Below, one piece after another: positions 15,450-33,331 of a stretch of DNA of 64,000 nt (position 1 is the first letter of the stretch; each line of letters opens with the position of its first letter). The stretch comes from an uncultured Clostridia bacterium (lineage in GTDB: Bacteria > Bacillota > Clostridia > TANB77 > CAG-465). The notes beneath the pieces were generated by a model. The model did not search any database and was not told the origin of the DNA. It worked only from the letters and a program-made list of their open reading frames with translations. Position numbers and translations under genes: made by a program. The stretch covers positions 33-64,032 of the forward strand of contig CANQPW010000003.1 in NCBI GenBank assembly GCA_947625855.1, written 5' to 3'.

Positions 15450-16142
15450 TTATACTCTTTCGCAATAAACTACATATCTTTGTGTATTTACCAAATATGG
15501 ATGACAAGTGATTAAAGTAAGCAAATCTTTTCCTTTTTGTATTTTTAACTTTGAAATATCTGTTGGAGATATAATATCTATTTTTATAACTTTATATTTA
15601 AGTTCTTCCATAAAGTTTCGAATATAAACTTCATCTCCTATTTCAAGCATTTCTATATCATCAAACATCTTTGCAAGACTGTATCCTCTATGTGCACCAA
15701 TTACACAATTTGTATTAATTCCACCAACAGGATATGAGGTTTGTGTCAAATGCACAGCACCTTTTTTCATATTTTCTTCTGTTGCGCCAAGAAGTATAGG
15801 TAAATCTACATTCATCTTTGGTATTCTTATATATCCTATTGTATTTTCCTCTATTCCATATTCTGCTAAATCTATATTTACTTCTTCATAGGAAAAAGGA
15901 TCTCTTAAATCTCTTTGATTAGTCTGATATAATTTTTCATTTCTTTTTTTCAACTCTTGATACAATTCTTGATATTTAACTGGTTCATATTCTGCATAAT
16001 TTTCAAATTTTTCTTTTTTTATACTTATACTTTTTGCATAAATAACATTATTTATCTTAGGTGCAAATATTACAGCTATTCCTACTAAAATTAATAATAT
16101 TGAAATTGTAACAAGAATAATAGAAGTTTTTTTATTGTTCAA
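15450..16142 (-). CDS. srtC: Class C (pilus-assembly) sortase
   Basis: N-terminal TM, lid-like DPF (LRDPFSY), GAHRG His, TLITCHPY (TLxTC) and a conserved late Arg (RYVVYCERV). Confidence 0.85.
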   Translation of the reverse strand: MNNKKTSIILVTISILLILVGIAVIFAPKINNVIYAKSISIKKEKFENYAEYEPVKYQELYQELKKRNEKLYQTNQRDLRDPFSYEEVNIDLAEYGIEENTIGYIRIPKMNVDLPILLGATEENMKKGAVHLTQTSYPVGGINTNCVIGAHRGYSLAKMFDDIEMLEIGDEVYIRNFMEELKYKVIKIDIISPTDISKLKIQKGKDLLTLITCHPYLVNTQRYVVYCERV

Positions 16143-16995
16143 TTTTCTTTTCCTTCCTTTTTTTATTTATAAACATATAACTTAAAAATATTAACAATAA
16201 TACTATACCAATTATCAATCCAATTAAATTATAATCTATTCTAATTATATCTTTTACTTGTTCATCTTTCTCTACTACTTCTTCAGGTATATATTCTGTT
16301 CTTTCAGCATGAACTAATAATCTATGAGTGTTAATAGCATATGGTGTGCAAGTTACTAGTGTTACCAAATCTCTTCCTTGTTGCATTCTTATTTTATCAA
16401 TTTGCTCAGGAGTTATAGTTTCTATTTCGTATATTTTATATGTATAAACTTGATTTAATACATAAATATAGAAATGATCACCTACTGATAATTTATCTAA
16501 ATCAGTAAATAATTTTGCACTTGGTAGTCCTCTATGACCTGTTAAAACAGATTGAGATGTATTACCTCCTATTGGAAAAGATGTGGTTTCAACATGTCCT
16601 ACTCCTTTTTCCAATACTTCATTACTTGTTCCATGATAGATTGGTAAATTAACACCTATTTTTGGTATTTTAATGTAACCTATAACACCATTTATATTTA
16701 ATACATCAGTATAATTTTCAGGCAAAGCATATCCACTTCCCTCTATGAAAGGATCGTGAAGTGGATCGCCTGATAAATTATCATTATAAATTTTTGCTTT
16801 ATATAACTCATTGTCTATATCTACATTATCCCCTAGCTGTATTACAGTTTTATCGTATTCATCAATTACTTGTACCTGATCTTTTACAGCTAAAGCATTA
16901 CTTACAGTTGGATAACTAAATATTACAATTCCTGCTAATAAGAAAAGTATAGCTAATAATAATAAAAATTTATTACTCTTATGCTTATTTTTCAT
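16132..16995 (-). CDS. srtC: Class C (pilus-assembly) sortase with C-terminal TM anchor
   Basis: N-terminal TM, lid DPLHDPF, TGHRG, TLVTCTPY, RLLVHAERT, then a C-terminal TM plus basic tail (LIGLIIGIVLLLIF...KKRKEKK). Overlaps the next sortase gene by 11 nt. Confidence 0.85.
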   Translation of the reverse strand: MKNKHKSNKFLLLLAILFLLAGIVIFSYPTVSNALAVKDQVQVIDEYDKTVIQLGDNVDIDNELYKAKIYNDNLSGDPLHDPFIEGSGYALPENYTDVLNINGVIGYIKIPKIGVNLPIYHGTSNEVLEKGVGHVETTSFPIGGNTSQSVLTGHRGLPSAKLFTDLDKLSVGDHFYIYVLNQVYTYKIYEIETITPEQIDKIRMQQGRDLVTLVTCTPYAINTHRLLVHAERTEYIPEEVVEKDEQVKDIIRIDYNLIGLIIGIVLLLIFLSYMFINKKRKEKKIEQ

Positions 16996-17010: not shown

Positions 17011-18624
17011 CTATTTTACATCATCAGTTGGATTTGTATTTTGATCATTAGTTACTACTTTTGCTTTTTTCTTCTTTGATAAAGCTACAACAACTAATAT
17101 AATACCTATTCCTATTAATAATGTTCCTACTGCTGTAAATATTATTGTTCCCATACCACCAGTTACTGGTAATTGGAATCCTTTATGGTTTTCTATTTTT
17201 AATTCTACATTTCCATCTTTTCCATCTAATGTATTACCAACAACAACTTCTGTATGGTCTGCTTGCTCATTATATCCTTCTGGTGCTTTCTTTTCTCTTA
17301 AATAATATGTTCCTGCTTTTAAACCTTTTAATGTTAATTTTCCTTTATTTCCACTTGCGGTATCACCAACAACTAATAATTCTGTTGCATCTAAAGCATC
17401 AGATACATAATATACTCCATCAACTAATTTGAATTTTACTGCTGTTTCTTCTGAAACATCTGAATATAATGTAAATTCTGCTCCTTCTAGTAAAACATCA
17501 GCCTCTTCTGGAGTAGATTTTTTTGCAATTTTTGATATTGTAGCTTGATATGTATATACTTGTTCTGAACTTGATTTTACATTAAAGCTTTCTTCTTCAT
17601 ATGGGTTGTTACTGTAATCTAAGTAAGCTACATTTGTATTTCCTGTACTACCAGTTACAACACTTGAAAGAGCACTCTCATCAAATTCTACATTATATGT
17701 AACAACTACTTTAGTATAAGTCTCTAATGCTTTTAAATTATTAAAGTTTACTGAAAATGAAACTGGAGCTTGTGATTTATCTGGTCTTTTAGCACCTGAT
17801 GTTGTTAATTCATAATTGCTTGGTTGAATTAATGTTCTTTCATCTCCTGCTACTATTCCATATACTTGAACTGATCCTGTTACAAGTTTCATTCCAGCTG
17901 GTATATTATCACTTATGTAATAGTTCTTTGATAAACTATTTTCTGGAAATTTTGGTAAATCAGCTGTTATAGTATAAGATAATTTACTAGATGTTGCTAC
18001 ATTATCCTCATCTACTGTTTTTGTAATTGTAGGTTCACTTGATTTAATTTCTACAACTGCTTGGCTTATTTTCCAGCCATGTGGCTCATTTTCAGTATCA
18101 TATTCTGGTGTTAAATTTACAACTGATGCTTGATATACATAATATCCATTTTCTATTAATACTAAATATGTACCCATATCTAAATCTGTAATTTCAACTT
18201 TTTCAGCCTCAGTTGATTCAACTGTTTTTGGTGTTAAAGTTATTTCACCATTTCTTATAGCAGCAGCTATTGTATCGTAAAATTTTCTTGCATCTTCACT
18301 TTTATTTCCTACTTTTTCTGCAAATACTTCTGGATCTACATATGTAGAATAATCTGGGTCTTCACCTTGTGTTCCTTGTAAAAATTGTTTTACACTTTCT
18401 TCCCATTCATATGGTGGTTCAATTGGTTCATCGTTATCAAAATCATAATTTACTTTTGTCAAATTATATGCAGAAACTTTAAGACCTGTTTCTACACCTG
18501 TTATCTCAATTTTACCCTTTTCTTCTAAATCTATTGCATAGCTATTTACATTAATACTCATAGTAAAAGTAACTAAAATCATAAGTATTGCAAAGATTTT
18601 TAAAGTGTAACTTTTTCTTTTCAT
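17011..18624 (-). CDS. LPXTG-anchored isopeptide-type pilin (candidate major/backbone pilin)
   Basis: Signal peptide ending NVNSYA, E-box-like GTYYLREKKAPEGY, sorting signal LPVTGG plus TM (MGTIIFTAVGTLLIGIGIILVVVAL) plus KKKK. Sits directly upstream of two class C sortases. Confidence 0.8.
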   Translation of the reverse strand: MKRKSYTLKIFAILMILVTFTMSINVNSYAIDLEEKGKIEITGVETGLKVSAYNLTKVNYDFDNDEPIEPPYEWEESVKQFLQGTQGEDPDYSTYVDPEVFAEKVGNKSEDARKFYDTIAAAIRNGEITLTPKTVESTEAEKVEITDLDMGTYLVLIENGYYVYQASVVNLTPEYDTENEPHGWKISQAVVEIKSSEPTITKTVDEDNVATSSKLSYTITADLPKFPENSLSKNYYISDNIPAGMKLVTGSVQVYGIVAGDERTLIQPSNYELTTSGAKRPDKSQAPVSFSVNFNNLKALETYTKVVVTYNVEFDESALSSVVTGSTGNTNVAYLDYSNNPYEEESFNVKSSSEQVYTYQATISKIAKKSTPEEADVLLEGAEFTLYSDVSEETAVKFKLVDGVYYVSDALDATELLVVGDTASGNKGKLTLKGLKAGTYYLREKKAPEGYNEQADHTEVVVGNTLDGKDGNVELKIENHKGFQLPVTGGMGTIIFTAVGTLLIGIGIILVVVALSKKKKAKVVTNDQNTNPTDDVK

Positions 18625-19502: not shown

Positions 19503-19505
19503 ATT

Positions 19506-19949: not shown

Positions 19950-19962
19950 AATTCCTCCAATT

Positions 19963-20625: not shown

Positions 20626-20629
20626 TTTC

Positions 20630-22768: not shown

Positions 22769-22864
22769 AAAACTTCCTCCAACATAATGATATTTTACTA
22801 CAAATAATAAAAAAAATAAAGAAAAAAAGGACAAGTATTATAAACTCATCCTTTTTTTATTTAA

Positions 22865-25800
22865 TTACTGATTTTTAGTTTTTATCTTTAACTTTATTAC
22901 AGCTAAAATAATAACTCCAACAAACATTAAAGATAAACCTATTTTATAAAATCGAGATGTTCCAATAGCACCAGATGCTGGAAAACTAAATACTGATGTA
23001 TTTGGTAGTAATAATTCTACTCCATTTTTTACTACAAATGCTGGTGGTAAATTTTCTCCAAGTGCTGTTATATCTGGTACATTTTTTCCTGCTTCAAATA
23101 CTACCTTCCATTGTCCTTGTGGTTTTAATCTACCAAGTGCTGCTTTATCTTCTACAAGTCTATATTCTTCTCCTAATATTATTCCTTCAAATTTTACCTG
23201 TCCATCTATGTTATCTTCTCCACTTAATTTTTCTCCTACTTTTTCAAAGCATTCATTAATATTATTTGAATCTAATAACATATTATGGTCTTCATCTGTA
23301 TGATGTGTAGGATCTTTACATACTAGTCTATATAATGTAAACTTTGCTCCATTTAATGGATTTTCTTGATTTTCACTTTCTACTTTCTTAAATTCAAAAT
23401 CTACTAAACTTGATGCATTTATATATTCTACTAATTCATCATCATCTAACTTTCCACTCTCATTTGATGGTACTGTTGTAAAGTTATTTTTTCCTTCTTC
23501 TACTTCTTCTATTTTATACTCTAATCCTTTTGGTAAATTCTCTATTGTTATATTTTGTCCATGTTTTAATTTTACACTTCCAGTAGAACTTCCATCTTCA
23601 TTTTGTGTAAATTCTATTGTTCCATCCAGTGCAGGAGTCACATCATCTACAAAGCTTGACCCTTTATAATCATAGCTATCATATAACACTATATCACTTT
23701 CTGGTGTAAATGTTATTTCAAATGTCCAGTCTCTTTCTTTATCATCAGTTGTTCCAACAACTGTTTTTCTTAAATCTAATTTTACTAATTCCTGTGTAAA
23801 TTTATTTATATAATTTGCCTCATCTGTTAAACCTGCTTCTGTGATACCTGTAATTGTTCTTTCGTTTACTTCAAAATCATCATCTTCTCTTCCTGCTACA
23901 CTTACAAATTCAAATGCAGGATTTTGTATTTCATGTTCAGTAACTATATATGATGTTCCAGCACTTAATCCAGATACTAAAATTCCTTCACCATCTTTTA
24001 GTGTAAATGTTGCAGTAGCTGTATTAGTTGCATTGTCTATATTAAATTTTAGTTCTTTTATTCTCATATCAACTGTTAGTTTAAATAAAGGATCTGTATT
24101 ATCTTCATCTTTATATACTCGTATTAAATTTCCATCTGTTTTTTCAGGACCTGAATAAGCAGTTATTGTTCCATCACTATTAACTAATCTTTCTTTATAG
24201 CTATTTCCAACCCAATACACTGTTCTTTTACCATCTACATCAAGTATATATCCTTCATTATCCGTTATAACATAAGTTGTATCTGCCTCAGGAATCCATT
24301 GTGTACCATTCCAAATATATGTAAATACTATTGCTCTTTCATTTGCTATATCTCCAATTAATTTTAAATCAAATGTAAATTCTTCATTTTTTGCCTCTAA
24401 GAAATGATTTTTATCAACATTTGCTTCAACAGTTTTTGTTATAAATAACCATGTTTCTTGAACTGCTAATGCTCCATTATTTCCAAGATAAGTTATAATA
24501 CTATAATTTGAAGAATCAGCAGTAGTACCATATACAGGTGCATAATATAGTGTTGCTGTATCTGTTTCATTTTGAGATTTCAAATGTGAGTAACTTGTTA
24601 TATTTCCAACACGTTTTCCACCAACTTTTGTTGTTACTATTATACCTTCACCTGGTTCATCTACTTCAAGACGATTAGAAACATCATAATATGTTATATA
24701 TTTTTCATTATTTTCTCCAAAGAAGTCAGACCCTTTACATGATGCTGCATATTGAACTAATCTACCATCTGCCCCATCTGGTGTTTTCTCTCTTATATAA
24801 TAATCAATTGGAATATAATATGTATCATCCATATTTATTTCTTCCATAGTTTTTACTTCATCACTTAATTCGATTTCACCACCAGTTGATGTCATTTCTC
24901 CTTCTCCGCCTGAACTATTTTTATATATTTTTAGATTATTTTGAAATACATAAAATCTATTTTTCTTTGATGGTGAAAATGTTACTGATGGATTTCCAAA
25001 AGTATATCTTCTTCTGCTATCAAAATTTTCTCCACTATAATAATTTGAATAAAAGAATGACCATTCTTCACCATCTATATTTTTCAAATTTTTTAAGAAA
25101 TATTCTCTTGAAAGTCTACTTAAATCTATTTTTCCTGTACTTTTACTTATGATTTCATCAGATATTCCAACTGTATATGTAACTCTAAGTGGTAAACAAT
25201 ACTGAGTATCTGTATTTGTCTCATATCTTAATACTTTTTGAAACTCATCAACATCTATCATATCTAAGTGTATTGGAAGTGCAGAACTTGGAATATTAAT
25301 ATGCACTGCCTCACTATACAGTGAATCAATATCGTGTTCTTCATCAGTATCATAATTATCGCTATCTTCAACCCATATTCTTATATCACTCAGTTTATAT
25401 GTTATCTTAGAATCATCACCATAACTCATATTAACTCTTTCTATTGATCTGTCTTGTGTTGGTATATTTAGACGATAAAGAGTAAATACAACATTATTTA
25501 AAGCCTCATTAGACGACAAATATCCTTCCGGCAAAAATCCTTCTTGATCTTTATTACCATCAACATATTCTCGTGTAAGATAATATGTATCACCTGCAGC
25601 CCAGCTTCCTTCATCTCCTAAGTAATTTCCTTCACTATCATACCAACCATTGCCATGACCTTTCATATCAAAATTTGCATCATAAACAGCAGTTTTTACA
25701 ATTGGATAATTTTCTCCAAATAACAATAAATTAGTGATATCTTTTACTTCCATATATTTTCCAATAGGGTCTACATATGTTAGTGCATCTGTTACTCCAG

Positions 25801-27775
25801 AATCATTTTGTCCTTCAACGGGTACAAAAGCCTCAGTAAGTAGCATATCAAATACTTGATCAAATATAGTTTCTATATTTTCATCACTTGCATCAAAATA
25901 TGCATTATTAAATTTAAATTCCTCAAGAGAATTTACATCAAATTGTGCAAGATACTCTTTTGTAAACTTTTCTTCATTTTCCATATATGGATTTGCAATA
26001 TTTTGTTCTGCATAACCTCCTGATGAGATACGAACTGCATCTGCTGGACGTGGAGAATCTTTACTACTTGAGAAACTACTACTTGAACTATACCAATATA
26101 CTGACATATCTGGTGATGCGGTACTTGCAGTTATACTACCTATTGTAGGTTCAGGTAAAAGTGGAACACCTGAGTGATTTCTTATAAAATAATCGTTAGT
26201 TTCATCATATGCTTCACAATCAATAGTTGGATGAAATAATGTAAAATCATCTATATATTTTGTTCCATCATACGAGAAGAAACGTGGTTCATTACCATTT
26301 GCATATTCATTAACCATTTTATAAACATTATTTATTGTTTCTATTGTTTCTTCTGATAAATCAGAGAATGCACTTAAATCTTCAGTCAAATAGGTCTTTG
26401 GATCTAATGACAACTTTGCATTTACATTAGAAAGGCTTACACCTATTGAATATATTGCCATTTCATTTCTATAATTTGCTTCAGCGACCTTTTTCCAATA
26501 TGATGCTGTCATTAAAGGCTTTAATGAACGCAACACATCAGTCCTTGTTTGTGAACCATGCCAATTAAAATATTCATTTACATTATATGGGTAATTTTTT
26601 TGAGTTGTAACATCTTCACTTGTAGAGAATGTATTTTTTGTATCTTCACCTACTGTTCCGGGCATCCACCAAGATGCATAATCACTTGCTGTATTTGAAG
26701 CTCCATCTGAAAGAGTTACAAAAACTGGTACATAATCTACATCTTTTGTAACATAATGTGCAACTGTATTTTCTGCTTCTGCAAGCATTCTTAATCCCAA
26801 ATAATATGCTGATTGTATATTAGTTCCACCTTCTGTTGTTTGTGATATTGTTACAATATTATCATCATTATCATCTTTATTTTCACCATTTACTTTATCC
26901 AAATTATAGTCTTTTGCATGTGTAACAACATCTGATGAAGTACTTGGTTTATATTTGAACGTTATAACTCTACCATAGCCATATTCTCTTGTATCATTAT
27001 ATATTGCACCTTCTTCACCATAATATCCTTGACTTTCACTATCAAGATCTGGCCATCCTCCTGATACAGTTAAGTATTTATACTCTATATCATCTGAGCC
27101 CGATTTACTCATTCTTGAATATGTTATTGTTTGTCCTTCTTTACCATCTACATTTACATTTGTTAACTCAACTACACCATTTTTATCTATAAAAGTACCT
27201 GCACTCTCATAGTGATCAAGTGGTATTAAAGTATATGCATTATCATCAAATAATACAATTCCAACTCTGTTATATGGACTTAATTCCATAAGATTTGTTA
27301 TCATTTTATCAGCAGCTTTTATTACTAAACTCATTCTACTATCAGAGTCATCACCTGAATACATAGAACTTGAAACATCAATTATCATAACTAAATCTAT
27401 TGGTACAGGTGGATATTCAGTTACAACTTGACTTGAACCTAAAGCAGAAAAAACATGCAAGAAATCTTCATTGTAACTTATATCAAATTTTTCATCTAAA
27501 GTAACTACATTAGGATTATTAGTACCATCATGAGCAAAAACTGACTTATCAGACCAAACACGACCATTATAACGGCCACCAACTGTTGGATTTGATACTA
27601 CACTTTTATAGTCATCTACTGTACTAGAATCAGCAATTCTAAGTACTTTTTCATCTGTTAAATCAGAATGTAATGCCAAATCTTTATCATTCATTGCACT
27701 AACAATAAAAATTGCAACACTAAAAATTAATAAAACTATACCAACCGTAAAAAAACTTAACCTTTTCTTTTTCAT
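22865..27775 (-). CDS. Giant VWA/MIDAS surface adhesin, paralog 1 (candidate pilus-tip or wall-anchored adhesin)
   Basis: 1636 aa. Signal peptide, then DLVMIIDVSSSM (DxSxS MIDAS start of a VWA domain), then a long beta-rich stalk. C-terminal Cna-B/SpaA-like modules (NPLNGAKFTLYRL, EEYRLVEDKA). C-terminal hydrophobic helix plus basic tail, preceded by LPNTS...FPASG. Confidence 0.8.
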   Translation of the reverse strand: MKKKRLSFFTVGIVLLIFSVAIFIVSAMNDKDLALHSDLTDEKVLRIADSSTVDDYKSVVSNPTVGGRYNGRVWSDKSVFAHDGTNNPNVVTLDEKFDISYNEDFLHVFSALGSSQVVTEYPPVPIDLVMIIDVSSSMYSGDDSDSRMSLVIKAADKMITNLMELSPYNRVGIVLFDDNAYTLIPLDHYESAGTFIDKNGVVELTNVNVDGKEGQTITYSRMSKSGSDDIEYKYLTVSGGWPDLDSESQGYYGEEGAIYNDTREYGYGRVITFKYKPSTSSDVVTHAKDYNLDKVNGENKDDNDDNIVTISQTTEGGTNIQSAYYLGLRMLAEAENTVAHYVTKDVDYVPVFVTLSDGASNTASDYASWWMPGTVGEDTKNTFSTSEDVTTQKNYPYNVNEYFNWHGSQTRTDVLRSLKPLMTASYWKKVAEANYRNEMAIYSIGVSLSNVNAKLSLDPKTYLTEDLSAFSDLSEETIETINNVYKMVNEYANGNEPRFFSYDGTKYIDDFTLFHPTIDCEAYDETNDYFIRNHSGVPLLPEPTIGSITASTASPDMSVYWYSSSSSFSSSKDSPRPADAVRISSGGYAEQNIANPYMENEEKFTKEYLAQFDVNSLEEFKFNNAYFDASDENIETIFDQVFDMLLTEAFVPVEGQNDSGVTDALTYVDPIGKYMEVKDITNLLLFGENYPIVKTAVYDANFDMKGHGNGWYDSEGNYLGDEGSWAAGDTYYLTREYVDGNKDQEGFLPEGYLSSNEALNNVVFTLYRLNIPTQDRSIERVNMSYGDDSKITYKLSDIRIWVEDSDNYDTDEEHDIDSLYSEAVHINIPSSALPIHLDMIDVDEFQKVLRYETNTDTQYCLPLRVTYTVGISDEIISKSTGKIDLSRLSREYFLKNLKNIDGEEWSFFYSNYYSGENFDSRRRYTFGNPSVTFSPSKKNRFYVFQNNLKIYKNSSGGEGEMTSTGGEIELSDEVKTMEEINMDDTYYIPIDYYIREKTPDGADGRLVQYAASCKGSDFFGENNEKYITYYDVSNRLEVDEPGEGIIVTTKVGGKRVGNITSYSHLKSQNETDTATLYYAPVYGTTADSSNYSIITYLGNNGALAVQETWLFITKTVEANVDKNHFLEAKNEEFTFDLKLIGDIANERAIVFTYIWNGTQWIPEADTTYVITDNEGYILDVDGKRTVYWVGNSYKERLVNSDGTITAYSGPEKTDGNLIRVYKDEDNTDPLFKLTVDMRIKELKFNIDNATNTATATFTLKDGEGILVSGLSAGTSYIVTEHEIQNPAFEFVSVAGREDDDFEVNERTITGITEAGLTDEANYINKFTQELVKLDLRKTVVGTTDDKERDWTFEITFTPESDIVLYDSYDYKGSSFVDDVTPALDGTIEFTQNEDGSSTGSVKLKHGQNITIENLPKGLEYKIEEVEEGKNNFTTVPSNESGKLDDDELVEYINASSLVDFEFKKVESENQENPLNGAKFTLYRLVCKDPTHHTDEDHNMLLDSNNINECFEKVGEKLSGEDNIDGQVKFEGIILGEEYRLVEDKAALGRLKPQGQWKVVFEAGKNVPDITALGENLPPAFVVKNGVELLLPNTSVFSFPASGAIGTSRFYKIGLSLMFVGVIILAVIKLKIKTKNQ
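23141..23618. repeat. 478-nt block perfectly identical to 28285..28762 (inside the two VWA paralogs)
   Basis: Compared line by line at a constant offset of 5144 nt with no mismatch found. Flanks on both sides show scattered substitutions. Confidence 0.85.
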
Positions 27776-27916
27776 AAAATCCCCTTAAAAATTATATAAA
27801 CGAATATAACTAATACTTAAATTTTTAATAGTATTAGCCTCTTATATATTCTTTTCATCTTACATTATTAACTTTACCATGTATTATACCCCTTAAAAAA
27901 AATACATTTCAATTTT

Positions 27917-27945
27917 ATATTACCACTACTTAAGAAAAAAATCAA
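27917..27945 (-). promoter_or_regulatory. Promoter of VWA paralog 1
   Basis: Minus strand TTGATT, 17 nt, TAATAT with TGg extended -10. The block is conserved upstream of paralog 2. A second candidate lies just downstream (TTGAAA, 18 nt, TATAAT at 27883-27912), so the true TSS is ambiguous. Confidence 0.5.
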
Positions 27946-27961
27946 TAAAATATACATAAAA

Positions 27962-27998
27962 ATATGATAGATTATCAAATTAACATAATCTATCATAT
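27962..27998 (-). terminator. Terminator of VWA paralog 2
   Basis: Perfect 14-bp inverted repeat ATATGATAGATTAT / ATAATCTATCATAT with a 9-nt loop, followed on the minus strand by TTTT. Located 10 nt after the stop codon. Confidence 0.6.
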
Positions 27999-28008
27999 TT
28001 TATATTTT

Positions 28009-31000
28009 TTACTGTTTTTCTGTCTTCATCTTTAATTTTATTACAGCCAAAATAACAACTCCAACAAACATTAAAGAAAGTCCTATTTTATAAAATAGAG
28101 ATGTTCCAATAGCACCAGATGATGGAAAACTAAATATTGATGTATTTGGTAGTAATAATTCTACTCCATTTTTAACTACAAATGCTGGTGGTAAATTTTC
28201 TCCAAGTGCTGTTATATCTGGTACATTTTTTCCTGCTTCAAATACTACCCTCCACTGTCCTTGTGGTTTTACTCTACCTAGTGTTGCTTTATCTTCTACA
28301 AGTCTATATTCTTCTCCTAATATTATTCCTTCAAATTTTACCTGTCCATCTATGTTATCTTCTCCACTTAATTTTTCTCCTACTTTTTCAAAGCATTCAT
28401 TAATATTATTTGAATCTAATAACATATTATGGTCTTCATCTGTATGATGTGTAGGATCTTTACATACTAGTCTATATAATGTAAACTTTGCTCCATTTAA
28501 TGGATTTTCTTGATTTTCACTTTCTACTTTCTTAAATTCAAAATCTACTAAACTTGATGCATTTATATATTCTACTAATTCATCATCATCTAACTTTCCA
28601 CTCTCATTTGATGGTACTGTTGTAAAGTTATTTTTTCCTTCTTCTACTTCTTCTATTTTATACTCTAATCCTTTTGGTAAATTCTCTATTGTTATATTTT
28701 GTCCATGTTTTAATTTTACACTTCCAGTAGAACTTCCATCTTCATTTTGTGTAAATTCTATTTTTCCATCCAGTGCAGGAGTCACATCATCTACAAAGCT
28801 TGACCCTTTATAATCATAACTATCATATAACACTATATCACTTTGTGGTATAAATGTTATTTTAAAAGTCCAGTCTCTTTTCTTATCCTCACTTGTTCCA
28901 ACAACTGTTTTTCTTAAATCTAATTTTACTAATTCTTGAGTAAATTTATTTACATAATTTGCCTCATCTGCTAAACCTGCTTCTGTAATACCTGTAATTG
29001 TTCTTTCGTTTACTTCAAAATCATCATCTTTTCTTCCTGTTACACTTACAAATTCAAATGCAGGATTTTGTGGCTCATGTTCAGTAACTACATATGATGT
29101 TCCAGCATTTAATCCAGATATTAAAATTCCCTCTCCATCTTTTAATGTAAATGTTGTTGTTACTATATTTGTACTCTTATCAACATTAAATTCAAGGTCT
29201 TTTATTTTCATATCAACAGTAATTTTATATAACGGTACTGTATTACTTAAATCGCTATATACACGTATTGTTTCAGATGTTTCCTTATCAGGGCCAGTAT
29301 ATGTAGTAATTGTTCCGTCTGAATTTATGGTTCTTGATTCTAAATCGTTTCCAACCCAATACTTTGTTCTCTTTCCATCTAAATCAAGTATATATCCTTC
29401 ATTATCCGTCACAACATACATATCCTCTGCTGCAGGTATCCATTTTGTTCCGTCCCATATATATGTAAATACTATTGCTCTTTCATTAGCTACATCACCT
29501 ATTAATTTTAAATCATATGTAAACTCCTCATTTTTTGCTTTTAAGAAATGATTTTTATCAACATTTGATTCAACAGTTTTTGTTATGAACAGCCATGTTT
29601 CTTGAACCGCTAATGCACCATTATTACCAAGGTAAGTTATAATACTATAATTTCCTTCCATATCTGCTACACTACCATATACAAGTGCATAATATAGTGT
29701 TGCTGTATCTGTTTCATTTTTTAATTTTAAATGTGAGTAATTTGTTATATTTCCAACACGTTTTCCACCAATTTTTGTCGCAACTACTATACCTTCACCT
29801 GGTGCATCCCCTTCTATATTTTCTGCTTCGTTATAATAAGTTATATATTTTTCACCATTATTTCCGAAAAAATCAGATCCTTTACAAGATACTGCATATT
29901 TTACTTTTCTGCCAATTGTACCATCAGAATTTTGACTAGGAATAAAATAATCTATTGTAAAATAATATGTTTCATCATCTATTATTTCATCAATACTTTT
30001 TACCTCATCACTTAGCTCAATACTACCTCCTGTTTCAACTACTTCACCTTCTCCACCAGAGCTATTTTTATATATCTTTAAATTATTTTGAAATACATAA
30101 AATCTATTTTCTGATGATGGTGAAAATGTTACTGAAGGATTTCCAAAAGTATATCTTCTTCTACTATCAAAATTTTCTCCACTATAATAATTTGAATAAA
30201 AATATGCCCATTCTTCTCCATCTTTTTCTTTTATATTATTTGTAAAATATTCTCTAGAAAGTCTACTTAAATCTATTTTTCCTGTTTTGCTATTTATTAT
30301 TTCATCAGTTATTCCAACAGTATACACAACTCTAAGTGGTAAAGCATAATCAGTTTCTGCATTTGTATTGTAGTTTATGACATTTGAAAATTCATCTATA
30401 TCTATTGAGCTTAAAAGAATTGGAAGTACATTTGTTGGTACATTAATATGTAATGCTTCCTCATAAAAAGAATCTTCATCATGTTCTTCATCAGTATTAT
30501 AATCTCCACTATCTTCAATCCATATTCTTATATCACTTAGTTTATATGTGACATCACTACTATTACCATAACTTGGATTATTTCTTATCATAGTTCTTTC
30601 ACTTTGAGCTAAATTTAGACGGTAAAGTGTAAATACTATATTATCTAATGCTTGTTTAGAGCTCAAATATCCCTCTGGTAAAAAACCTTCTTGAGTTTTT
30701 GAACCTTCAACATACTCACGTGTTAGATAATATGTATCACCTGCGTCCCAACTTCCTTCATCTCCTAAGAAGTTTCCCTCACTGTCATACCAACCATTTC
30801 CATTACCTTTCATATCAAAATTTGCGTCATATACACCAGTTTTAACTACTGGATAATTATTACCAAATAATAATAGATTAGTAACATCTTTTATTTCCAT
30901 ATATTTTCCAATAGGGTCTGTATAAGTTAAAGCATCTTTAATTCCCATATCATTATATCCCTCTATTGGTTTAAATGCTTCTCCTTCAATTTCGTATAAG

Positions 31001-32979
31001 ATTTTTCCAAGTTCTTCACTTATATTACTAGACATTACATCATAAAATCCATTGTTATATACCATATTATTTTTAACATCTTCATTTGTTATTGTGACAT
31101 CAAAAGTATCATTATATGATGCCTCTTCACTAATTGGTAACATATGTACTTTAACCTGAGCCGAATTCGTATTTGCCTCAGCATCTTGTCCATTTTTCCA
31201 TTTTTCCCAAGACGATATAAGTCCTTGATATATTGTTGCTTTAGTTATACCAAAACCATTTTGTAGTTCTGGTCCAAATAGTTCTTCATTATCCCACCAA
31301 TTTGGTATATCACTAAATAAATTATTTCCTGGGTCAACAATTGGATAAAGCCTAAGTTTTCCCCATTGTGGAATATGCTCAGCATCAATACTCATTGTAT
31401 ATGTTTTAGGGGAAATCCTAGATTCTTGAGTTGCCCCATTTTCTGTCCATCCTTGTTCATAATGCTTATCTACTGCTGTTTTCATATATGATGCTGTCAT
31501 TAAACATTGTAAAACTGCCCCTGATGTACCAAAAGTATCATTATCATTACTATAAAAAGCACCTGCATAATTCCACGCTGGAATACCTGTTAAAGATCCA
31601 TTTTCTTCTTCCATACCAGGATTATAAAGAGAAGTTATAGCATGAGTATCATTTATACCTGGCAAATATACTTTATACCATTCATCACCAACATTATCAT
31701 TTAAACGATGTGAAAAATCACGTAAATCCATAGTCCAACCTAATTCTGGTTGAGTATGGTCTATTGCTGAGTTATCATTACGATAGCCATCATAATATTC
31801 ACTATATACACCATAAAATCTATCCCAATCATCCATTTCATTAAAAGCAAAATTTGCTCCACCATCTGTCATTATAATTGTAGCAGGAATACGCGCAACA
31901 GTAGTATTCATACCATTAGGAAGAATTGTTGAAAATGTTGTTTTACTTTCCTGTGCCAGTTGTGCATATGCTAAATATATACCACCTTGTGTATTTGTAA
32001 GATAACCAATATATTCATCTGCTTCAATTTCATTTTTTTCTTCATTTACACCTAAAGATAAATTTTCATCTGTTTGCACTTTATATCCAGGATATGCTTT
32101 TACCTTAGTATTTTTAACATTATTACTAATTATTTTTGTATAAATATTATTATCTGAAAATGTTGGATTATCATTATCATCCCTATATGCTTCTGCTTTT
32201 ACTGCAAAACAAGCATCTATATTTCGCGTCCAAAGTAGACCATATTCTCCTTCATATCTAAGATCTGCAAGATTATATAACGTCTCAAAACCAACAATAC
32301 TTATATATGGTTTATCATCAATTTTTTTATAATGTGCAAGTGGCATTAAAACAGTAGCACCAGCACCATATGCTACTATGGCAACTCTATTATTTTTATT
32401 TTGTTTCATCAATTCATCAATAGTTTTATTAATCGCATCTATTGATACTTTCAAACGAGAATTCTCAATTCTTTCTTTCATCGTACGTCTTTCACTTGGC
32501 GCATAATCTCCAGTAAATGGTGCATTGAAATCATCAATATTATATCTTATATCCTGTGCCATTGACGCAGACATATCTATATTAATTACTAAATCTATTG
32601 GACTAGGTGGATATTGTTTTAAAACTTGAGATGAACCTAATGCAGAAAATACATGTAAGAAATCTTCATTAAAATCAATATTAAACCTATTATCTAGCGT
32701 AACCTCATTACTTTGTGAAGTGCCATCATGAGCATAAACGGATTTATCCGACCATACATATCCGTTATATCTACCACCATTTAGTGGATTTTCTAATAAA
32801 TCTTTATAACTATCAACTGTATTAGTATCTGCAATACGTAAAACATTCTCATCTGCAAGATCTGCATGTAATGCTGAATTATCATCATTCATGTCACTAG
32901 CAATATAAATTATTGTAAATGCAATGAGTAATACTAAACATATTGAAAAAACACTTAATCTATTAATTCTTTTTTTCAT
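28009..32979 (-). CDS. Giant VWA/MIDAS surface adhesin, paralog 2
   Basis: 1656 aa with the same architecture as paralog 1. MIDAS DLVINIDMSASM. The C-terminal ~1000 aa are highly similar to paralog 1. C-terminus LPNTS...FPSSG plus TM plus KLKMKTEKQ. Confidence 0.8.
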   Translation of the reverse strand: MKKRINRLSVFSICLVLLIAFTIIYIASDMNDDNSALHADLADENVLRIADTNTVDSYKDLLENPLNGGRYNGYVWSDKSVYAHDGTSQSNEVTLDNRFNIDFNEDFLHVFSALGSSQVLKQYPPSPIDLVINIDMSASMAQDIRYNIDDFNAPFTGDYAPSERRTMKERIENSRLKVSIDAINKTIDELMKQNKNNRVAIVAYGAGATVLMPLAHYKKIDDKPYISIVGFETLYNLADLRYEGEYGLLWTRNIDACFAVKAEAYRDDNDNPTFSDNNIYTKIISNNVKNTKVKAYPGYKVQTDENLSLGVNEEKNEIEADEYIGYLTNTQGGIYLAYAQLAQESKTTFSTILPNGMNTTVARIPATIIMTDGGANFAFNEMDDWDRFYGVYSEYYDGYRNDNSAIDHTQPELGWTMDLRDFSHRLNDNVGDEWYKVYLPGINDTHAITSLYNPGMEEENGSLTGIPAWNYAGAFYSNDNDTFGTSGAVLQCLMTASYMKTAVDKHYEQGWTENGATQESRISPKTYTMSIDAEHIPQWGKLRLYPIVDPGNNLFSDIPNWWDNEELFGPELQNGFGITKATIYQGLISSWEKWKNGQDAEANTNSAQVKVHMLPISEEASYNDTFDVTITNEDVKNNMVYNNGFYDVMSSNISEELGKILYEIEGEAFKPIEGYNDMGIKDALTYTDPIGKYMEIKDVTNLLLFGNNYPVVKTGVYDANFDMKGNGNGWYDSEGNFLGDEGSWDAGDTYYLTREYVEGSKTQEGFLPEGYLSSKQALDNIVFTLYRLNLAQSERTMIRNNPSYGNSSDVTYKLSDIRIWIEDSGDYNTDEEHDEDSFYEEALHINVPTNVLPILLSSIDIDEFSNVINYNTNAETDYALPLRVVYTVGITDEIINSKTGKIDLSRLSREYFTNNIKEKDGEEWAYFYSNYYSGENFDSRRRYTFGNPSVTFSPSSENRFYVFQNNLKIYKNSSGGEGEVVETGGSIELSDEVKSIDEIIDDETYYFTIDYFIPSQNSDGTIGRKVKYAVSCKGSDFFGNNGEKYITYYNEAENIEGDAPGEGIVVATKIGGKRVGNITNYSHLKLKNETDTATLYYALVYGSVADMEGNYSIITYLGNNGALAVQETWLFITKTVESNVDKNHFLKAKNEEFTYDLKLIGDVANERAIVFTYIWDGTKWIPAAEDMYVVTDNEGYILDLDGKRTKYWVGNDLESRTINSDGTITTYTGPDKETSETIRVYSDLSNTVPLYKITVDMKIKDLEFNVDKSTNIVTTTFTLKDGEGILISGLNAGTSYVVTEHEPQNPAFEFVSVTGRKDDDFEVNERTITGITEAGLADEANYVNKFTQELVKLDLRKTVVGTSEDKKRDWTFKITFIPQSDIVLYDSYDYKGSSFVDDVTPALDGKIEFTQNEDGSSTGSVKLKHGQNITIENLPKGLEYKIEEVEEGKNNFTTVPSNESGKLDDDELVEYINASSLVDFEFKKVESENQENPLNGAKFTLYRLVCKDPTHHTDEDHNMLLDSNNINECFEKVGEKLSGEDNIDGQVKFEGIILGEEYRLVEDKATLGRVKPQGQWRVVFEAGKNVPDITALGENLPPAFVVKNGVELLLPNTSIFSFPSSGAIGTSLFYKIGLSLMFVGVVILAVIKLKMKTEKQ

Positions 32980-33078
32980 ACTTTACCCCTTAAAAAACAA
33001 AAAATTTACTTAATTTACAATATCAACTTATAATTATATTGTTCATATTAATTATTATTATAAATTTATATGTATTTT

Positions 33079-33168
33079 TTAAGAGATTTTTTTGTTTAAA
33101 TAAATATCTGTGTGTGTGTGTGTGTGTGTGTGTAGTTTATTCACATTTTCGTGCAATATTGTTACCAT
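33079..33168 (-). CDS. Candidate 29-codon leader ORF containing the (CA)12 tract
   Basis: AAGGAGA (33178-33184), 9-nt spacer, ATG at 33168. Encodes MVTILHENVNKL(HT)4DIYLNKKIS, stop TAA at 33079-33081. Lies downstream of the predicted promoter. Too short for the ORF track; found by hand translation. Confidence 0.3.
   Translation of the reverse strand: MVTILHENVNKLHTHTHTHTDIYLNKKIS
33109..33132. repeat. (TG)12 / (CA)12 dinucleotide microsatellite
   Basis: Read directly: ctg(tg)11tag, giving 12 uninterrupted TG units. It is 130 nt upstream of the paralog 2 ATG. No comparable tract lies upstream of paralog 1. Confidence 0.97.
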
Positions 33169-33207
33169 AATATTCTATCTCCTTTTTAAACGTACTATTA
33201 TAATTTT

Positions 33208-33236
33208 ATATTACCATTACTAAGAAAAAAAATCAA
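33208..33236 (-). promoter_or_regulatory. Promoter of VWA paralog 2
   Basis: Minus strand TTGATT, 17 nt, TAATAT with TGg extended -10. Sits within a ~40-nt block nearly identical to 27911-27950. Confidence 0.55.
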
Positions 33237-33331
33237 TAAATAATGTCTAAAAATATGATTATATTTGTATAATAATATATTAATCACTATAATAATAAAG
33301 CAATAAATAAAAAATAATATCTACAAATATA

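What the first reader, a model, noticed from the sequence alone, without database searches (positions are those of the whole stretch)
22865..32979. Tandem giant VWA adhesin paralogs are mosaics: shared leader and stalk, swapped ligand-binding head, and a 478-nt zero-mismatch block
Seen: the two genes (1636 and 1656 aa) form a direct repeat with a 5144-nt offset. The first ~130 aa up to the MIDAS start are clearly homologous (DLVMIIDVSSSM vs DLVINIDMSASM). The next ~500 aa, the VWA head and its insertions (~25830-27360 vs ~30975-32560), are barely alignable by eye. From FVPVEGQNDSGVTDALTYVDPIGKY / FKPIEGYNDMGIKDALTYTDPIGKY onward the ~1000-aa stalks are highly similar. Inside the stalk, 23141-23618 and 28285-28762 are identical at every position I compared, while both flanks carry substitutions. 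The ~40-nt promoter block is duplicated too. Inference: duplication was followed by head replacement or diversification, and ongoing gene conversion homogenises the stalk. This is a cassette-like way to present alternative binding specificities on one scaffold.
Basis: partly seen in the sequence, partly recalled or inferred. Interest (0 to 1): 0.68.

Follow-up and report, generated by a model that had tools for sequence, protein, structure and literature searches.

The report
Tandem pilus-tip adhesins, shared stalk
Two neighbouring genes of an uncultured, very AT-rich gut Clostridia-type bacterium encode giant pilus-tip adhesins that share a stalk kept alike by gene conversion but carry two anciently different binding heads; this is a familiar bacterial way of offering alternative adhesins, seen here in an uncharacterised protein family.

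Summary
Genes A (22865-27775, -) and B (28009-32979, -) are tandem paralogs. Amino-acid identity is 66% in the leader, 27% in the VWA head over the residues that align at all (no detectable DNA similarity), and 81% in the stalk. The 478-nt zero-mismatch block (23141-23618 = 28285-28762) is real in this assembly and far beyond chance.

Both proteins are sortase-pilus tip adhesins of the RrgA/GBS104/SpaC/PitA type, and both keep the MIDAS residues. The two heads did not diverge in place. Each belongs to an old head class with closer relatives in other genomes: head B is 52% identical to a head in a rabbit-gut MAG, head A 39% to others. The leader and stalk are each other's closest relatives.

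Synonymous sites are saturated in leader and head, intermediate in mid-stalk, and nearly identical in the last 1.1 kb. That pattern fits repeated, 3'-biased gene conversion. A low-coverage contig from another sample carries a 52-138-nt A-type patch inside B.

A related MAG has six such paralogs with the same mosaic. Each has a poly-G tract in its promoter spacer. Window gene B has a (CA)12.5 tract in an upstream mini-ORF. I rate this a new variant of a known kind, of moderate interest.

The parts
22865..27775 (-). Gene A, 1636-aa VWA tip adhesin: signal peptide and leader aa 1-126, head aa 127-649, stalk aa 650-1636, sorting signal FPASG + TM + KLKIKTK
28009..32979 (-). Gene B, 1656-aa paralog: leader aa 1-129, head aa 130-668, stalk aa 669-1656, sorting signal FPSSG + TM + KLKMKTEK
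25829..27397 (-). Head A: VWA core with MIDAS D133-x-S135-x-S137, T318, D357, plus large inserted arms. This head class is rare.
30976..32592 (-). Head B: VWA core with MIDAS DMSAS at 135-139, the T of LTNTQG (327-332) and the D of MTDGGA (370-375). Different arms. 52% identical to head T1 of a rabbit-gut MAG.
23141..23618 (-). Zero-mismatch block, copy in A (aa 1386-1545). It spans the end of DUF7601 and the start of the SpaA-type domain and does not follow domain borders.
28285..28762 (-). Zero-mismatch block, copy in B
22853..23940 (-). 3' low-divergence zone of A, about 96% identical to 27998-29084 in B. It surrounds the identical block and runs 12 nt past the stop codon.
27874..27968 (-). 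Conserved upstream block of A. It holds the promoter-like TTGAAA-18-TATAAT and an RBS followed by the mini-ORF MVKLIM*.
33162..33259 (-). Conserved upstream block of B, 77.6% identical to that of A
33079..33168 (-). 29-codon upstream ORF of B (MVTILHENVNKLHTHTHTHTDIYLNKKIS*) behind an AAGGAG site. It is homologous to the true N-terminus of the closest relative (L006, MKTLAIVHTHTHTIYNLLEK).
33109..33133 (-). Perfect (CA)12.5 tract inside that upstream ORF. It is the only dinucleotide repeat of 6 or more units in the 64-kb window.
27930..28012 (-). AT-rich hairpin followed by a T-run between B and A; probable terminator of B
   Evidence: -19.9 kcal/mol, z = -4.2
22822..22858 (-). Terminator-like hairpin after A, before relA
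17011..18624 (-). SpaH/EbpB-type major pilin (LPVTG), the probable shaft for A and B
15450..16995 (-). Two sortase genes, orthologous (62% and 57%) to the pair that follows tip and pilin genes in L001
33366..43664 (-). Upstream neighbour: 3432-aa surface protein with 19 Cna_B repeats. It has no DNA similarity to A or B.

Best explanation
A and B are two complete, separately transcribed genes for alternative tip adhesins of one sortase-assembled pilus. The probable shaft pilin is at 17011-18624 and its two sortases at 15450-16995.

Each protein is a Sec-exported chain with three parts. The leader and the first stalk segment probably form a split beta domain, and a VWA/MIDAS head with large arms is inserted into it. 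A long stalk of Ig-like domains (DUF5979, DUF7601, SpaA type) then ends in an FP(A/S)SG sorting signal.

The two heads belong to two old head classes and probably bind different ligands. The scaffold evolves in concert. Homologous recombination between the tandem copies (gene conversion) repeatedly overwrites the stalk, most often and most recently at its 3' end, and the latest event left 478 identical nucleotides. The unalignable heads block conversion tracts, so they stay distinct. The short leader beyond them has drifted to synonymous saturation.

A likely functional consequence is that both tips keep the same C-terminal module and sorting signal, which the pilus sortase and shaft must recognise.

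Shown: the mosaic, the conversion signature, the head-class relationships, the domain family, and orthology of the neighbouring genes. Inferred: that both proteins sit on the same pilus, that they bind different ligands, and that the leader packs against the first stalk segment.
For: Domain family. Pfam finds VWA, DUF7601 x2, SpaA and DUF5979. The AF2 models have pLDDT 73 and 80. Their best PDB matches are PitA 7w6b, GBS104 3txa, SpaC 6m48/6m3y and RrgA 2ww8. MIDAS residues are invariant across 15 family members including A and B.

Pilus context. In the closest relatives the tip gene is followed directly by pilin, sortase and sortase. The window's pilin and sortases are their orthologs at 40%, 62% and 57%.

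Conversion signature. pS per 50 codons is 0.49-0.55 in the leader, 0.17-0.58 across the rest of the stalk, about 0.1 just before the block, and 0 within it. At positions with the same amino acid, the same codon is used in 0.64 of cases in the leader (0.60 expected at saturation) and 0.65 in the head (0.65 expected). In the stalk the fraction is 0.76-0.80, then 0.93, then 0.994 (z = 10) towards the 3' end. The run-length permutation test never reached 478 nt.

Discordant ancestry. Leaders and stalks of A and B are each other's best hits (70% and 75%, against at most 59% and 44% elsewhere). Each head has far better hits in other genomes. Among 83 family members, A/B is the most extreme pair that combines a similar scaffold with dissimilar heads (0.73 / 0.04 / 0.79).

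The same pattern in an independent array. All six heads in L003/L005 have closer relatives outside the array, all six leaders have their closest relative inside it, and five of six stalk segments do too.

Second strain. In L084's gene B, 209 of 214 A/B-informative sites are B-type and 5 consecutive sites (28936-28987) are A-type. These are 5 of only 7 differences between the strains (P about 2e-6).

Composition. GC3 of the heads (0.12-0.13) equals that of the rest of the genome (about 0.10), so there is no sign of recent foreign DNA.

Precedent. Actinomyces oris type 2 fimbriae carry one of two alternate tips that share a similar sorting signal, and that signal suffices for tip placement (PMC11389406).
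Against: No experiment or expression data exist. The tip genes are separated from pilin and sortases by relA, an MBL hydrolase, an unknown ORF and ung, so use of the same pilus is inferred.

The source contig and all three same-species contigs appear to be short-read metagenome assemblies. Bubble-popping or repeat resolution could create exact identity, and could create the 5-site patch in L084, which is bounded by two 43-nt identical runs.

L085 switches from A-type to B-type exactly inside the block and differs from the window at 11 sites there. It could be a chimera. If so, it hints that the two block copies are not identical in every strain, or perhaps not in this one.

Family-wide, heads and stalks are reassorted between genomes as well. 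Import of a head by recombination therefore cannot be excluded for A/B.

I had no model coordinates, so MIDAS geometry and the packing of leader against stalk were not checked.
Confidence: 0.7

Rival explanations
1. Recent tandem duplication followed by import of a foreign head. The donor would be another strain or species, and the piece may have included the promoter and leader. Recombination would occur at the conserved flanks (FLHVFSALGSSQ...DxSxS and DPIGKYME...LLLFG). Gene conversion acts only in the 3' stalk.
For: Head B is 52% identical to a head in an uncultured Bacilli MAG, while the scaffolds of those two proteins score only 0.45 and 0.29. Many between-genome pairs combine similar heads with very different stalks, or the reverse. 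The leader is older than the stalk at synonymous sites, as expected if leader and head arrived together.
Against: B's leader is still closest to A's (70% against at most 56%). No donor is known closer than 52%. At 40-59% protein identity there is no DNA homology to drive exchange between known relatives. Head GC3 is fully host-like, although all relatives are AT-rich too (28-32% GC), so this test is weak. The model needs an extra mechanism, whereas intragenic conversion is directly visible.
Confidence: 0.2
2. The heads diverged in place after duplication, under strong diversifying selection, from one ancestral head.
For: Head dN per window is 0.7-1.6, at or above dS. Arms of VWA tip pilins are known to be the most variable parts (PMC7893114).
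Against: Each head has much closer relatives in other genomes than in its neighbour. The A and B heads share only a 46-aa BLAST match. Head dS estimates are unreliable because the alignment is poor and synonymous sites are saturated.
Confidence: 0.03
3. The exact 478-nt identity is an assembly artefact. Two nearly identical paralogous segments were collapsed and written twice during repeat resolution. The mosaic itself is real.
For: Related same-species contigs are SPAdes-style NODE contigs at about 2.5x coverage. L085 crosses from A-type to B-type inside the block and carries 11 differences there but none elsewhere outside its noisy contig end.
Against: The flanks, at 1-6% divergence, were not collapsed although they lie in the same graph region. 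The 64-kb contig traverses both copies with consistent flanks. L084 independently assembles the block between B-specific flanks with one SNP. Even with about 2% hidden differences, the 3' 1.1 kb would remain far less diverged than the saturated 5' parts.
Confidence: 0.13
4. The stalk similarity, including the block, reflects purifying selection on the protein, with no recombination.
For: The C-terminal module must fit the same sortase and shaft.
Against: Synonymous sites are identical too: same-codon use is 0.994 in the columns that hold the block (1501-1660), against 0.63 expected. The block ignores domain borders.
Confidence: 0.01

Closest known systems
VWA-containing sortase-pilus tip adhesins: RrgA (S. 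pneumoniae), GBS104 (S. agalactiae), SpaC (L. rhamnosus GG), PitA (S. oralis)
   Same: Signal peptide. A VWA/MIDAS domain with inserted arms, nested between N- and C-terminal scaffold segments. [quoted passage not shown] Neighbouring major pilin and sortases. These are the top Foldseek matches for both models (architecture from PMC7893114).
   Different: A and B are about twice as long. No sequence-level hit to any of these proteins was found in PDB. The stalk is built of DUF7601, DUF5979 and an unnamed roughly 650-aa region. The sorting motif is FP(A/S)SG rather than LPXTG. There are two tandem copies with different head classes. The tip genes are separated from the pilin and sortase genes by housekeeping genes.
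Staphylococcus aureus sdrC-sdrD-sdrE locus
   Same: Adjacent paralogous wall-anchored adhesin genes whose ligand-binding A domains are divergent (full-length identity 34-43%). The wall-proximal CnaB repeat is 94-97% identical between paralogs (PMC3775735). This is the same logic of a variable head on a homogenised stalk.
   Different: Sdr proteins are monomeric MSCRAMMs, not pilus tips. Their heads are DEv-IgG A domains, not VWA. No pilus sortase or shaft is involved.
Actinomyces oris type 2 fimbria with alternate tips FimB and CafA
   Same: [quoted passage not shown] One tip gene lies away from the pilin and sortase genes. The sorting signal is necessary and sufficient for tip placement (PMC11389406).
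   Different: By my recollection, FimB and CafA are not tandem mosaic paralogs with a common stalk. No gene conversion has been reported between them. They belong to actinobacteria, not AT-rich Clostridia.
Phase-variable adhesin genes controlled by simple sequence repeats. One example is H. pylori sabA, with tracts in the promoter and the 5' coding region (PMC2715451, abstract). From my own knowledge, H. influenzae hif and N. meningitidis opc/porA have repeats in the promoter spacer.
   Same: Relatives of A and B carry G8-G10 between consensus -35 and -10 hexamers, or (AC)n or poly-G in the first codons. B carries (CA)12.5 in its 5' region.
   Different: In B the tract sits in a mini-ORF that stop codons separate from the main ORF, so a simple ON/OFF frameshift does not apply. 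A has no tract. No length polymorphism could be observed.

Membership tests
Sortase-assembled pilus tip adhesin with VWA domain (RrgA/GBS104/SpaC/PitA type) | N-terminal Sec signal peptide | tested here: met
   By sequence: MKKKRLSFFTVGIVLLIFSVAIFIVSA in A and MKKRINRLSVFSICLVLLIAFTIIYIAS in B. No dedicated predictor was run.
Sortase-assembled pilus tip adhesin with VWA domain (RrgA/GBS104/SpaC/PitA type) | VWA fold with a complete MIDAS motif (DxSxS, T, D) | tested here: met
   Pfam VWA_2/VWA passes its cut-off in A and falls below it in B. D133, S135, S137, D357 and G358 are invariant and T318 nearly invariant in 15 family members including both. Alternating strand and helix with high pLDDT is predicted in the core. 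The 3-D geometry was not inspected.
Sortase-assembled pilus tip adhesin with VWA domain (RrgA/GBS104/SpaC/PitA type) | Overall fold resembles solved tip pilins | tested here: met
   Foldseek against PDB. A: PitA 1.2e-7, GBS104 5e-6, SpaC 2e-5, RrgA 4e-5. B: RrgA 7e-7, GBS104 1e-6, SpaC 9e-6. TM-scores are low (0.13-0.24), as expected for long multi-domain chains.
Sortase-assembled pilus tip adhesin with VWA domain (RrgA/GBS104/SpaC/PitA type) | C-terminal cell-wall sorting signal: LPXTG-like motif, hydrophobic stretch, basic tail | tested here: inconclusive
   The hydrophobic stretch and KLKIKTK tail are present. The motif is FPASG in A and FPSSG in B, with an LPNTS 8 residues upstream. Relatives have IP(D/A)(S/A/T)G at the same place. 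Pfam Gram_pos_anchor does not hit A or B. The pilin has a canonical LPVTG.
Sortase-assembled pilus tip adhesin with VWA domain (RrgA/GBS104/SpaC/PitA type) | Encoded with a major pilin and pilus-type sortase(s) | tested here: met
   The SpaH/EbpB-type pilin and two sortases lie 4.2-7.4 kb downstream on the same strand. They are orthologous to the pilin, sortase and sortase directly adjacent to the tip gene in L001/L006. In the window they are separated from A by relA, MBL, orf147 and ung.
Sortase-assembled pilus tip adhesin with VWA domain (RrgA/GBS104/SpaC/PitA type) | Covalent incorporation at the pilus tip | not testable with these tools
   Needs immunogold EM or mass spectrometry of pili.
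Interlocus (paralog) gene conversion | Identical or near-identical tract significantly longer than expected from the flanking divergence | tested here: met
   478 nt observed. The null maximum was 101 nt for the whole stalk and 301 nt for the 3' 1150 nt in 20,000 permutations each.
Interlocus (paralog) gene conversion | Homogeneity extends to synonymous sites and varies along the gene | tested here: met
   The same-codon fraction is at the saturation expectation in leader and head, and rises to 0.76-0.80, 0.93 and 0.994 towards the 3' end.
Interlocus (paralog) gene conversion | Segments of one gene have conflicting phylogenetic neighbours | tested here: met
   scaffolds cluster within a genome, heads cluster across genomes.
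Interlocus (paralog) gene conversion | Between-strain polymorphism in which clustered variants in one paralog match the other paralog | tested here: inconclusive
   L084 has 5 consecutive A-type sites in B. The contig has 2.6x coverage and the patch is bounded by 43-nt identical runs, so an assembly bubble artefact is possible. L085 is ambiguous or chimeric.
Programmed cassette variation (pilE/pilS, vlsE type) | Silent, promoterless donor cassettes that feed one expression site | tested here: not met
   Both genes are full-length and each has an RBS, a start codon, an upstream block and a terminator-like hairpin. No partial head copies turned up in the self-comparison of 15000-46000.
SSR-mediated phase-variable contingency gene | Simple sequence repeat placed in the promoter spacer or 5' coding region so that length changes alter expression | tested here: inconclusive
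   Met in relatives. The T array has TTGACA-N10-G8-10-TATAAT. L006 is in frame and L001 out of frame at (AC)n. 21 of 24 SSRs fall in the 3.1% of sequence just upstream of family genes, P = 5e-29. In the window, B's (CA)12.5 lies in an upstream mini-ORF that is not fused to the gene, and A has none.

The most novel reading that the evidence does not exclude
The tip-adhesin family to which A and B belong may be a contingency system of gut Firmicutes. It would comprise arrays of two to six alternative pilus tips, each a different VWA head class on a locally homogenised scaffold, and each switched independently by a simple-sequence repeat in its promoter spacer or 5' end. A clonal population would then display a stochastic mixture of pilus tip specificities. 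In the window, B's (CA)12.5 mini-ORF would be a working (translational or polarity) switch for the second tip, with A as the constitutive one. The conserved leader and neck would act as recombination handles for exchanging heads between co-resident bacteria.
Probability: 0.15. Interest if true: 0.7.

Novelty: new variant of a known kind. Interest (0 to 1): 0.45.

Why it matters
Sortase pili are the main long-range adhesins of Gram-positive gut bacteria, and their tip decides what the cell sticks to. This locus shows how an uncultured, host-restricted lineage can hold two (six in a relative) tip specificities compatible with one shaft and sortase. Recombination keeps the pilus-joining module uniform, and the non-homologous heads are protected from homogenisation.

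The result gives a concrete, testable set of head classes for ligand discovery in the rabbit-gut microbiota. It also identifies repeat-controlled promoters that suggest phase-variable piliation in Firmicutes, which I could not find described. The underlying principles are already known: variable head on a conserved stalk, concerted evolution of tandem adhesin genes, and alternate pilus tips.

Tried and rejected
- Exact look-ups of A and B in the contig index found nothing. The cluster table showed both are on an NCBI contig of 64,266 nt.
- Close-relative scans with protein A found nothing in GTDB genomes or JGI metagenomes. No full-length second strain was available.
- Head-only homolog searches returned only 1 and 5 hits because of the word prefilter. 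The exhaustive search showed head class A is truly rare: 4 proteins at E <= 1e-30 among 1.84 billion representatives.
- Rfam found no RNA family in the window.
- The family profile search against PDB sequences gave only a weak generic VWA hit.
- The promoter scan is uninformative at 26% GC: 80 sites found, 82 expected.
- The GC/GC3 test for a foreign head has no power, because all relatives are equally AT-rich.
- The six-gene array in L003/L005 has no long identical tracts (maximum 74 nt). Recent conversion is therefore not universal in such arrays.
- Literature searches for tandem or alternative VWA tip pilins, for phase-variable sortase pili and for the rabbit MAG study found no direct precedent.
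- Rejected: in-place diversification of the heads, purifying selection as the cause of the block, and a silent-cassette system.
- Not possible: inspecting model coordinates for MIDAS geometry or for packing of leader against stalk.

Full report
**1. Observation**

The region holds two long ORFs on the minus strand: A (22865-27775, 1636 aa) and B (28009-32979, 1656 aa). They form a direct repeat with an offset of 5144-5147 nt in the stalk and 5198 nt in the leader.

Comparing the region with itself by blastn gives three collinear matches:
- 22853-25834 with 27998-30981, 85.4% over 2995 nt.
- 27387-27791 with 32585-32996, 71.8%.
- the upstream blocks 27874-27968 with 33162-33259, 77.6%.

Nothing matches between 25835-27386 and 30982-32584. 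Segments 23141-23618 and 28285-28762 are identical at all 478 positions, and this is the longest identical run at that offset.

At protein level, identity is 66% in the leader and 81% in the stalk. It is 27% in the head, where only 435 of 628 alignment columns pair residues.

**2. Is the block more than chance?**

The stalk has 437 differences in 2961 aligned nucleotides. In 20,000 permutations of their positions the longest identical run was 101 nt.

Within the least diverged 3' 1150 nt (49 differences), the longest permuted run was 301 nt. The block covers A residues 1386-1545. It spans the end of the second DUF7601 domain and the start of the SpaA-type domain, so it does not follow a domain border.

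**3. What the genes are**

Pfam finds an N-terminal VWA domain, two DUF7601 domains, a SpaA prealbumin-like domain and, in B, DUF5979.

AlphaFold models of residues about 30-990 of each protein, built on a 40-sequence alignment, reach mean pLDDT 73 (A) and 80 (B). Their best matches among solved structures are the VWA tip pilins of sortase pili:
- PitA (7w6b)
- GBS104 (3txa)
- SpaC (6m48/6m3y)
- RrgA (2ww8)

The MIDAS residues are invariant in an alignment of 15 family members that includes A and B: D133-x-S135-x-S137 and D357 invariant, T318 nearly so. Both proteins end in a hydrophobic stretch and basic tail preceded by FPASG (A) or FPSSG (B). Relatives have IP(D/A)(S/A/T)G at that place.

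In RrgA and GBS104 the VWA domain is inserted between the N- and C-terminal halves of split stalk domains, and its arms are the most variable parts (PMC7893114). The 'leader' of A and B is beta-rich. By analogy it is probably half of such a split domain. That would explain why both flanks of the head belong to the conserved scaffold. I could not check this on coordinates.

**4. Context**

Gene order on the minus strand is as follows:
- recJ
- a 3432-aa protein with 19 Cna_B repeats
- B
- A
- relA/spoT
- an MBL hydrolase
- an unknown 147-aa ORF
- ung
- a SpaH/EbpB-type major pilin (LPVTG)
- two sortases

In the closest relatives the tip gene is followed directly by pilin, sortase and sortase. 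The window's pilin and sortases are orthologous to those at 40%, 62% and 57% identity, in the same order. A and B are therefore very probably tips for that pilus, although four housekeeping genes now separate them from it.

Each gene has its own upstream block, RBS and a terminator-like hairpin behind it. The window has 26.3% GC and GC3 of about 10%.

**5. Divergence profile**

In 50-codon windows, pS is 0.49-0.55 in the leader and 0.17-0.58 in the stalk up to column 1400. It is about 0.1 in the 100 codons before the block and in the 50 codons after it. It is 0 across the 150 codons inside the block, then rises to 0.19 in the last 44 codons.

Because GC3 is so low, pS near 0.5 is close to saturation. 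I therefore compared codon choice at positions that encode the same amino acid in both genes:

| Region | Same codon, observed | Expected if saturated |
|---|---|---|
| Leader | 0.64 | 0.60 |
| Head | 0.65 | 0.65 |
| Stalk, three successive segments | 0.76-0.80 (z about 4) | about 0.63 |
| Columns 1401-1500 | 0.93 | 0.63 |
| Columns 1501-1660 (contain the block) | 0.994 (z = 10) | 0.63 |
| 3' end | 0.89 | 0.57 |

So there is no single duplication date. The time since last common ancestry falls from 5' to 3'. This is the signature of repeated, 3'-biased gene conversion. It cannot be produced by selection on the protein.

**6. Origin of the heads**

Segment-wise BLAST was run against 46 homologs and then against 83 family members taken from 78 loci. 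The leader and first stalk segment of A and B are each other's best hits, at 70% and 75% identity. The next best hits are at most 59% and 44%.

The heads behave differently:
- Head A's best hits are heads in other genomes, at 38-39% over about 570-580 aa.
- Head B's best hit is a head in an uncultured Bacilli MAG from rabbit gut, at 52% over 549 aa. Further hits at 37-41% come from Lachnospiraceae, Oscillospiraceae and Monoglobus MAGs.
- The A and B heads share only a 46-aa match.

An exhaustive search of 1.84 billion representatives found only four proteins with a class-A head at E <= 1e-30.

In orthologous pairs from different genomes, head similarity tracks scaffold similarity. A scaffold score of 0.75-0.95 goes with a head score of 0.6-0.99. 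A/B scores 0.73 / 0.04 / 0.79 and is the most extreme outlier. In-place diversification is thus excluded, and the two heads are old classes.

**7. An independent array with the same design**

A contig from a rabbit-gut Bacilli MAG (L003/L005) carries six tandem paralogs of 1138-1262 aa, followed by a pilin gene. Mean pairwise identity is 61-78% in the leader, 15-42% in the head and 46-76% over most of the stalk.

All six heads have closer relatives outside the array than inside it. All six leaders and five of six first stalk segments have their closest relative inside the array. There are no long identical tracts (maximum 74 nt), so homogenisation there is older.

Tandem arrays are rare. They occur on 2 of about 76 distinct contigs. 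The family itself has 369 relatives and occurs almost only in rabbit-gut MAGs of Clostridia, Bacilli and Oscillospiraceae.

Across the family, heads and stalks are also reassorted between genomes. Real exchange of heads between scaffolds has therefore happened over long time scales.

**8. Other samples of the same species**

The cluster table led to three short, low-coverage ENA contigs.

L084 covers the 3' 1.9 kb of B, the 233-nt spacer and the first 780 nt of A. It shows 7 mismatches and one 52-nt deletion.
- It confirms the B-A junction.
- It assembles the block between B-specific flanks with one SNP.
- Of 214 A/B-informative sites in its B gene, 209 are B-type. Five consecutive sites (28936-28987) are A-type, and these are 5 of the 7 strain differences (P about 2e-6).

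This looks like a polymorphic conversion patch of 52-138 nt. However, the patch is bounded by two 43-nt identical runs and coverage is 2.6x, so a graph-bubble artefact cannot be excluded.

L085 is A-type at 241 sites upstream of the block and B-type at 32 sites downstream. It then continues into the B-A spacer. It differs from the window at 11 sites inside the block and at none outside it, apart from its noisy contig end. It is either a chimera formed in the repeat or a recombinant. In either case it suggests that the block is not identical between copies in every strain.

L086 confirms the junction and head A, with one mismatch per aligned piece. It also has 63-nt, 1-nt and 127-nt deletions of uncertain reality.

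**9. Simple-sequence repeats (outside the original finding)**

B's 5' region contains a perfect (CA)12.5 tract (33109-33133). It is the only dinucleotide repeat of 6 or more units in the window.

The tract lies in a 29-codon upstream ORF behind an AAGGAG site. The peptide, MVTILHENVNKLHTHTHTHTDIYLNKKIS*, is homologous to the real N-terminus of the closest relative L006, MKTLAIVHTHTHTIYNLLEK. In L006 an (AC)9.5 tract is in frame. In L001 an (AC)10 tract puts the RBS-linked ATG out of frame, with a stop after 18 codons. A has only the remnant MVKLIM* and no tract.

In the six-gene array every paralog has TTGACA-N10-G(8-10)-TATAAT, that is, a poly-G tract filling the promoter spacer, which is then 18-20 nt long.

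Over all loci, 21 of 24 distinct repeats of this kind lie in the 3.1% of sequence just upstream of the leader domain of family genes (binomial P = 5e-29). This supports repeat-mediated switching as a family trait. For B itself the tract is uncoupled from the main ORF, and its function is open.

**10. Explanation and rivals**

Best-supported (confidence about 0.7): A and B are old, resident alternative tip adhesins. Their scaffold is kept alike by conversion between the tandem copies, and the non-homologous heads act as barriers to conversion tracts. The C-terminal pilus-joining module is the most recently homogenised part. A precedent for two alternate tips with a similar sorting signal on one shaft exists in Actinomyces oris (PMC11389406). 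A precedent for adjacent adhesin paralogs with divergent heads and a 94-97% identical wall-proximal domain exists in the S. aureus sdr locus (PMC3775735).

Rivals:
- Import of a foreign head after a recent duplication: about 0.2.
- Exactness of the block as an assembly artefact: about 0.13. This would not remove the mosaic or the synonymous-site gradient.
- In-place diversification of the heads: about 0.03.
- Purifying selection alone: about 0.01.

**11. Verdict**

It needs correction on how the heads arose, on what the leader and the 'promoter block' are, and on the cassette analogy.

All the principles involved are known. What appears undescribed is their combination in sortase-pilus tips of an uncultured gut lineage, together with repeat-bearing promoters in relatives (searches found no precedent). 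I rate it a new variant of a known kind, interest 0.45.

Noticed in passing
window 33109-33133 (tract); 33079-33168 (upstream ORF), - strand: Perfect (CA)12.5 repeat, the only dinucleotide repeat of 6 or more units in 64 kb. It lies in a 29-codon ORF upstream of gene B, behind an AAGGAG site. The peptide (..LHTHTHTHTDIYLNKK..) is homologous to the real N-terminus of the closest relative. Stop codons in all frames separate it from B's ORF. Gene A has only MVKLIM* and no tract.
   Followed up: partly
L003 6500-20497 and L005 2100-21000 (same contig, CANRKS010000004.1): Six tandem VWA tip-adhesin paralogs followed by a pilin gene. Each paralog has the promoter TTGACA-N10-G(8-10)-TATAAT, so a poly-G tract fills the spacer (18-20 nt). 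This is the classic layout of slipped-strand phase variation.
   Followed up: partly
all fetched loci L001-L083 plus window: 21 of 24 distinct poly-G/C (8 or more) or dinucleotide (6 or more units) repeats lie within 600 nt upstream of the leader domain of family genes, which is 3.1% of the sequence (P = 5e-29). 17 of 72 family genes carry one.
   Followed up: yes
L006 9947-10010 and L001 9991-10060: The two closest relatives carry (AC)9.5 and (AC)10 in codons 7-13. In L006 the RBS-linked ATG is in frame with the 1636-aa ORF. In L001 it runs into a stop after 18 codons, and the annotation starts at an in-frame TTG instead. This looks like ON and OFF states of a translational switch.
   Followed up: partly
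window 18840-22834: relA/spoT, an MBL-fold hydrolase, an unknown 147-aa ORF (no Pfam or NCBIfam hit) and ung sit between the tip adhesin genes and their pilin and sortase genes. In relatives these are adjacent. The three big adhesin genes (20.8 kb) lie between recJ and relA.
   Followed up: partly
window 33366-43664, - strand: 3432-aa surface protein with 19 Cna_B repeats, two Listeria-Bacteroides repeats, MucBP and DUF7601. Its C-terminus has a TM segment and a basic tail but no recognisable LPXTG-like motif. Internal DNA repeats show spacings of 588 and 261 nt.
   Followed up: no
L084 (vs window 29444-29495); L086 (vs window 27338-27400, 27283, 25798-25924): Same-species contigs from other samples carry deletions that would disrupt the genes. 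In L084 a 52-nt deletion would frameshift B. In L086 a 63-nt deletion would remove the MIDAS DxSxS of A, and there are also a 1-nt and a 127-nt deletion. Coverage is only 2.2-2.6x, so these may be assembly errors or real pseudogenisation.
   Followed up: partly
L085 (vs window 23393-23540 / 28537-28684): The contig is A-type upstream and B-type downstream of the 478-nt block. It has 11 differences from the window inside the block and none elsewhere apart from its noisy contig end. One of them (23540/28684) is shared with L084. It is either a chimera or a recombinant, and it hints that block copies differ in other strains.
   Followed up: partly
locus table: The family (369 tblastn-confirmed relatives among GTDB species genomes) is almost confined to rabbit-gut ('Lapin') MAGs of uncultured Clostridia, Bacilli and Oscillospiraceae, plus a few 'HAN' Eubacterium and Oscillospiraceae MAGs. 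Head lengths range from about 330 to 930 aa and protein lengths from about 900 to more than 4700 aa.
   Followed up: no
window 22868-23000 and 28012-28144 (C-termini): The tip sorting signal is FPASG/FPSSG-AIGT, with an LPNTS 8 residues upstream. The shaft pilin has LPVTGGMGT. The tandem LPXT(S) + FPxSG arrangement recalls LPXTG + FLIAG in A. oris tip pilins (PMC11389406). That resemblance is untested.
   Followed up: no
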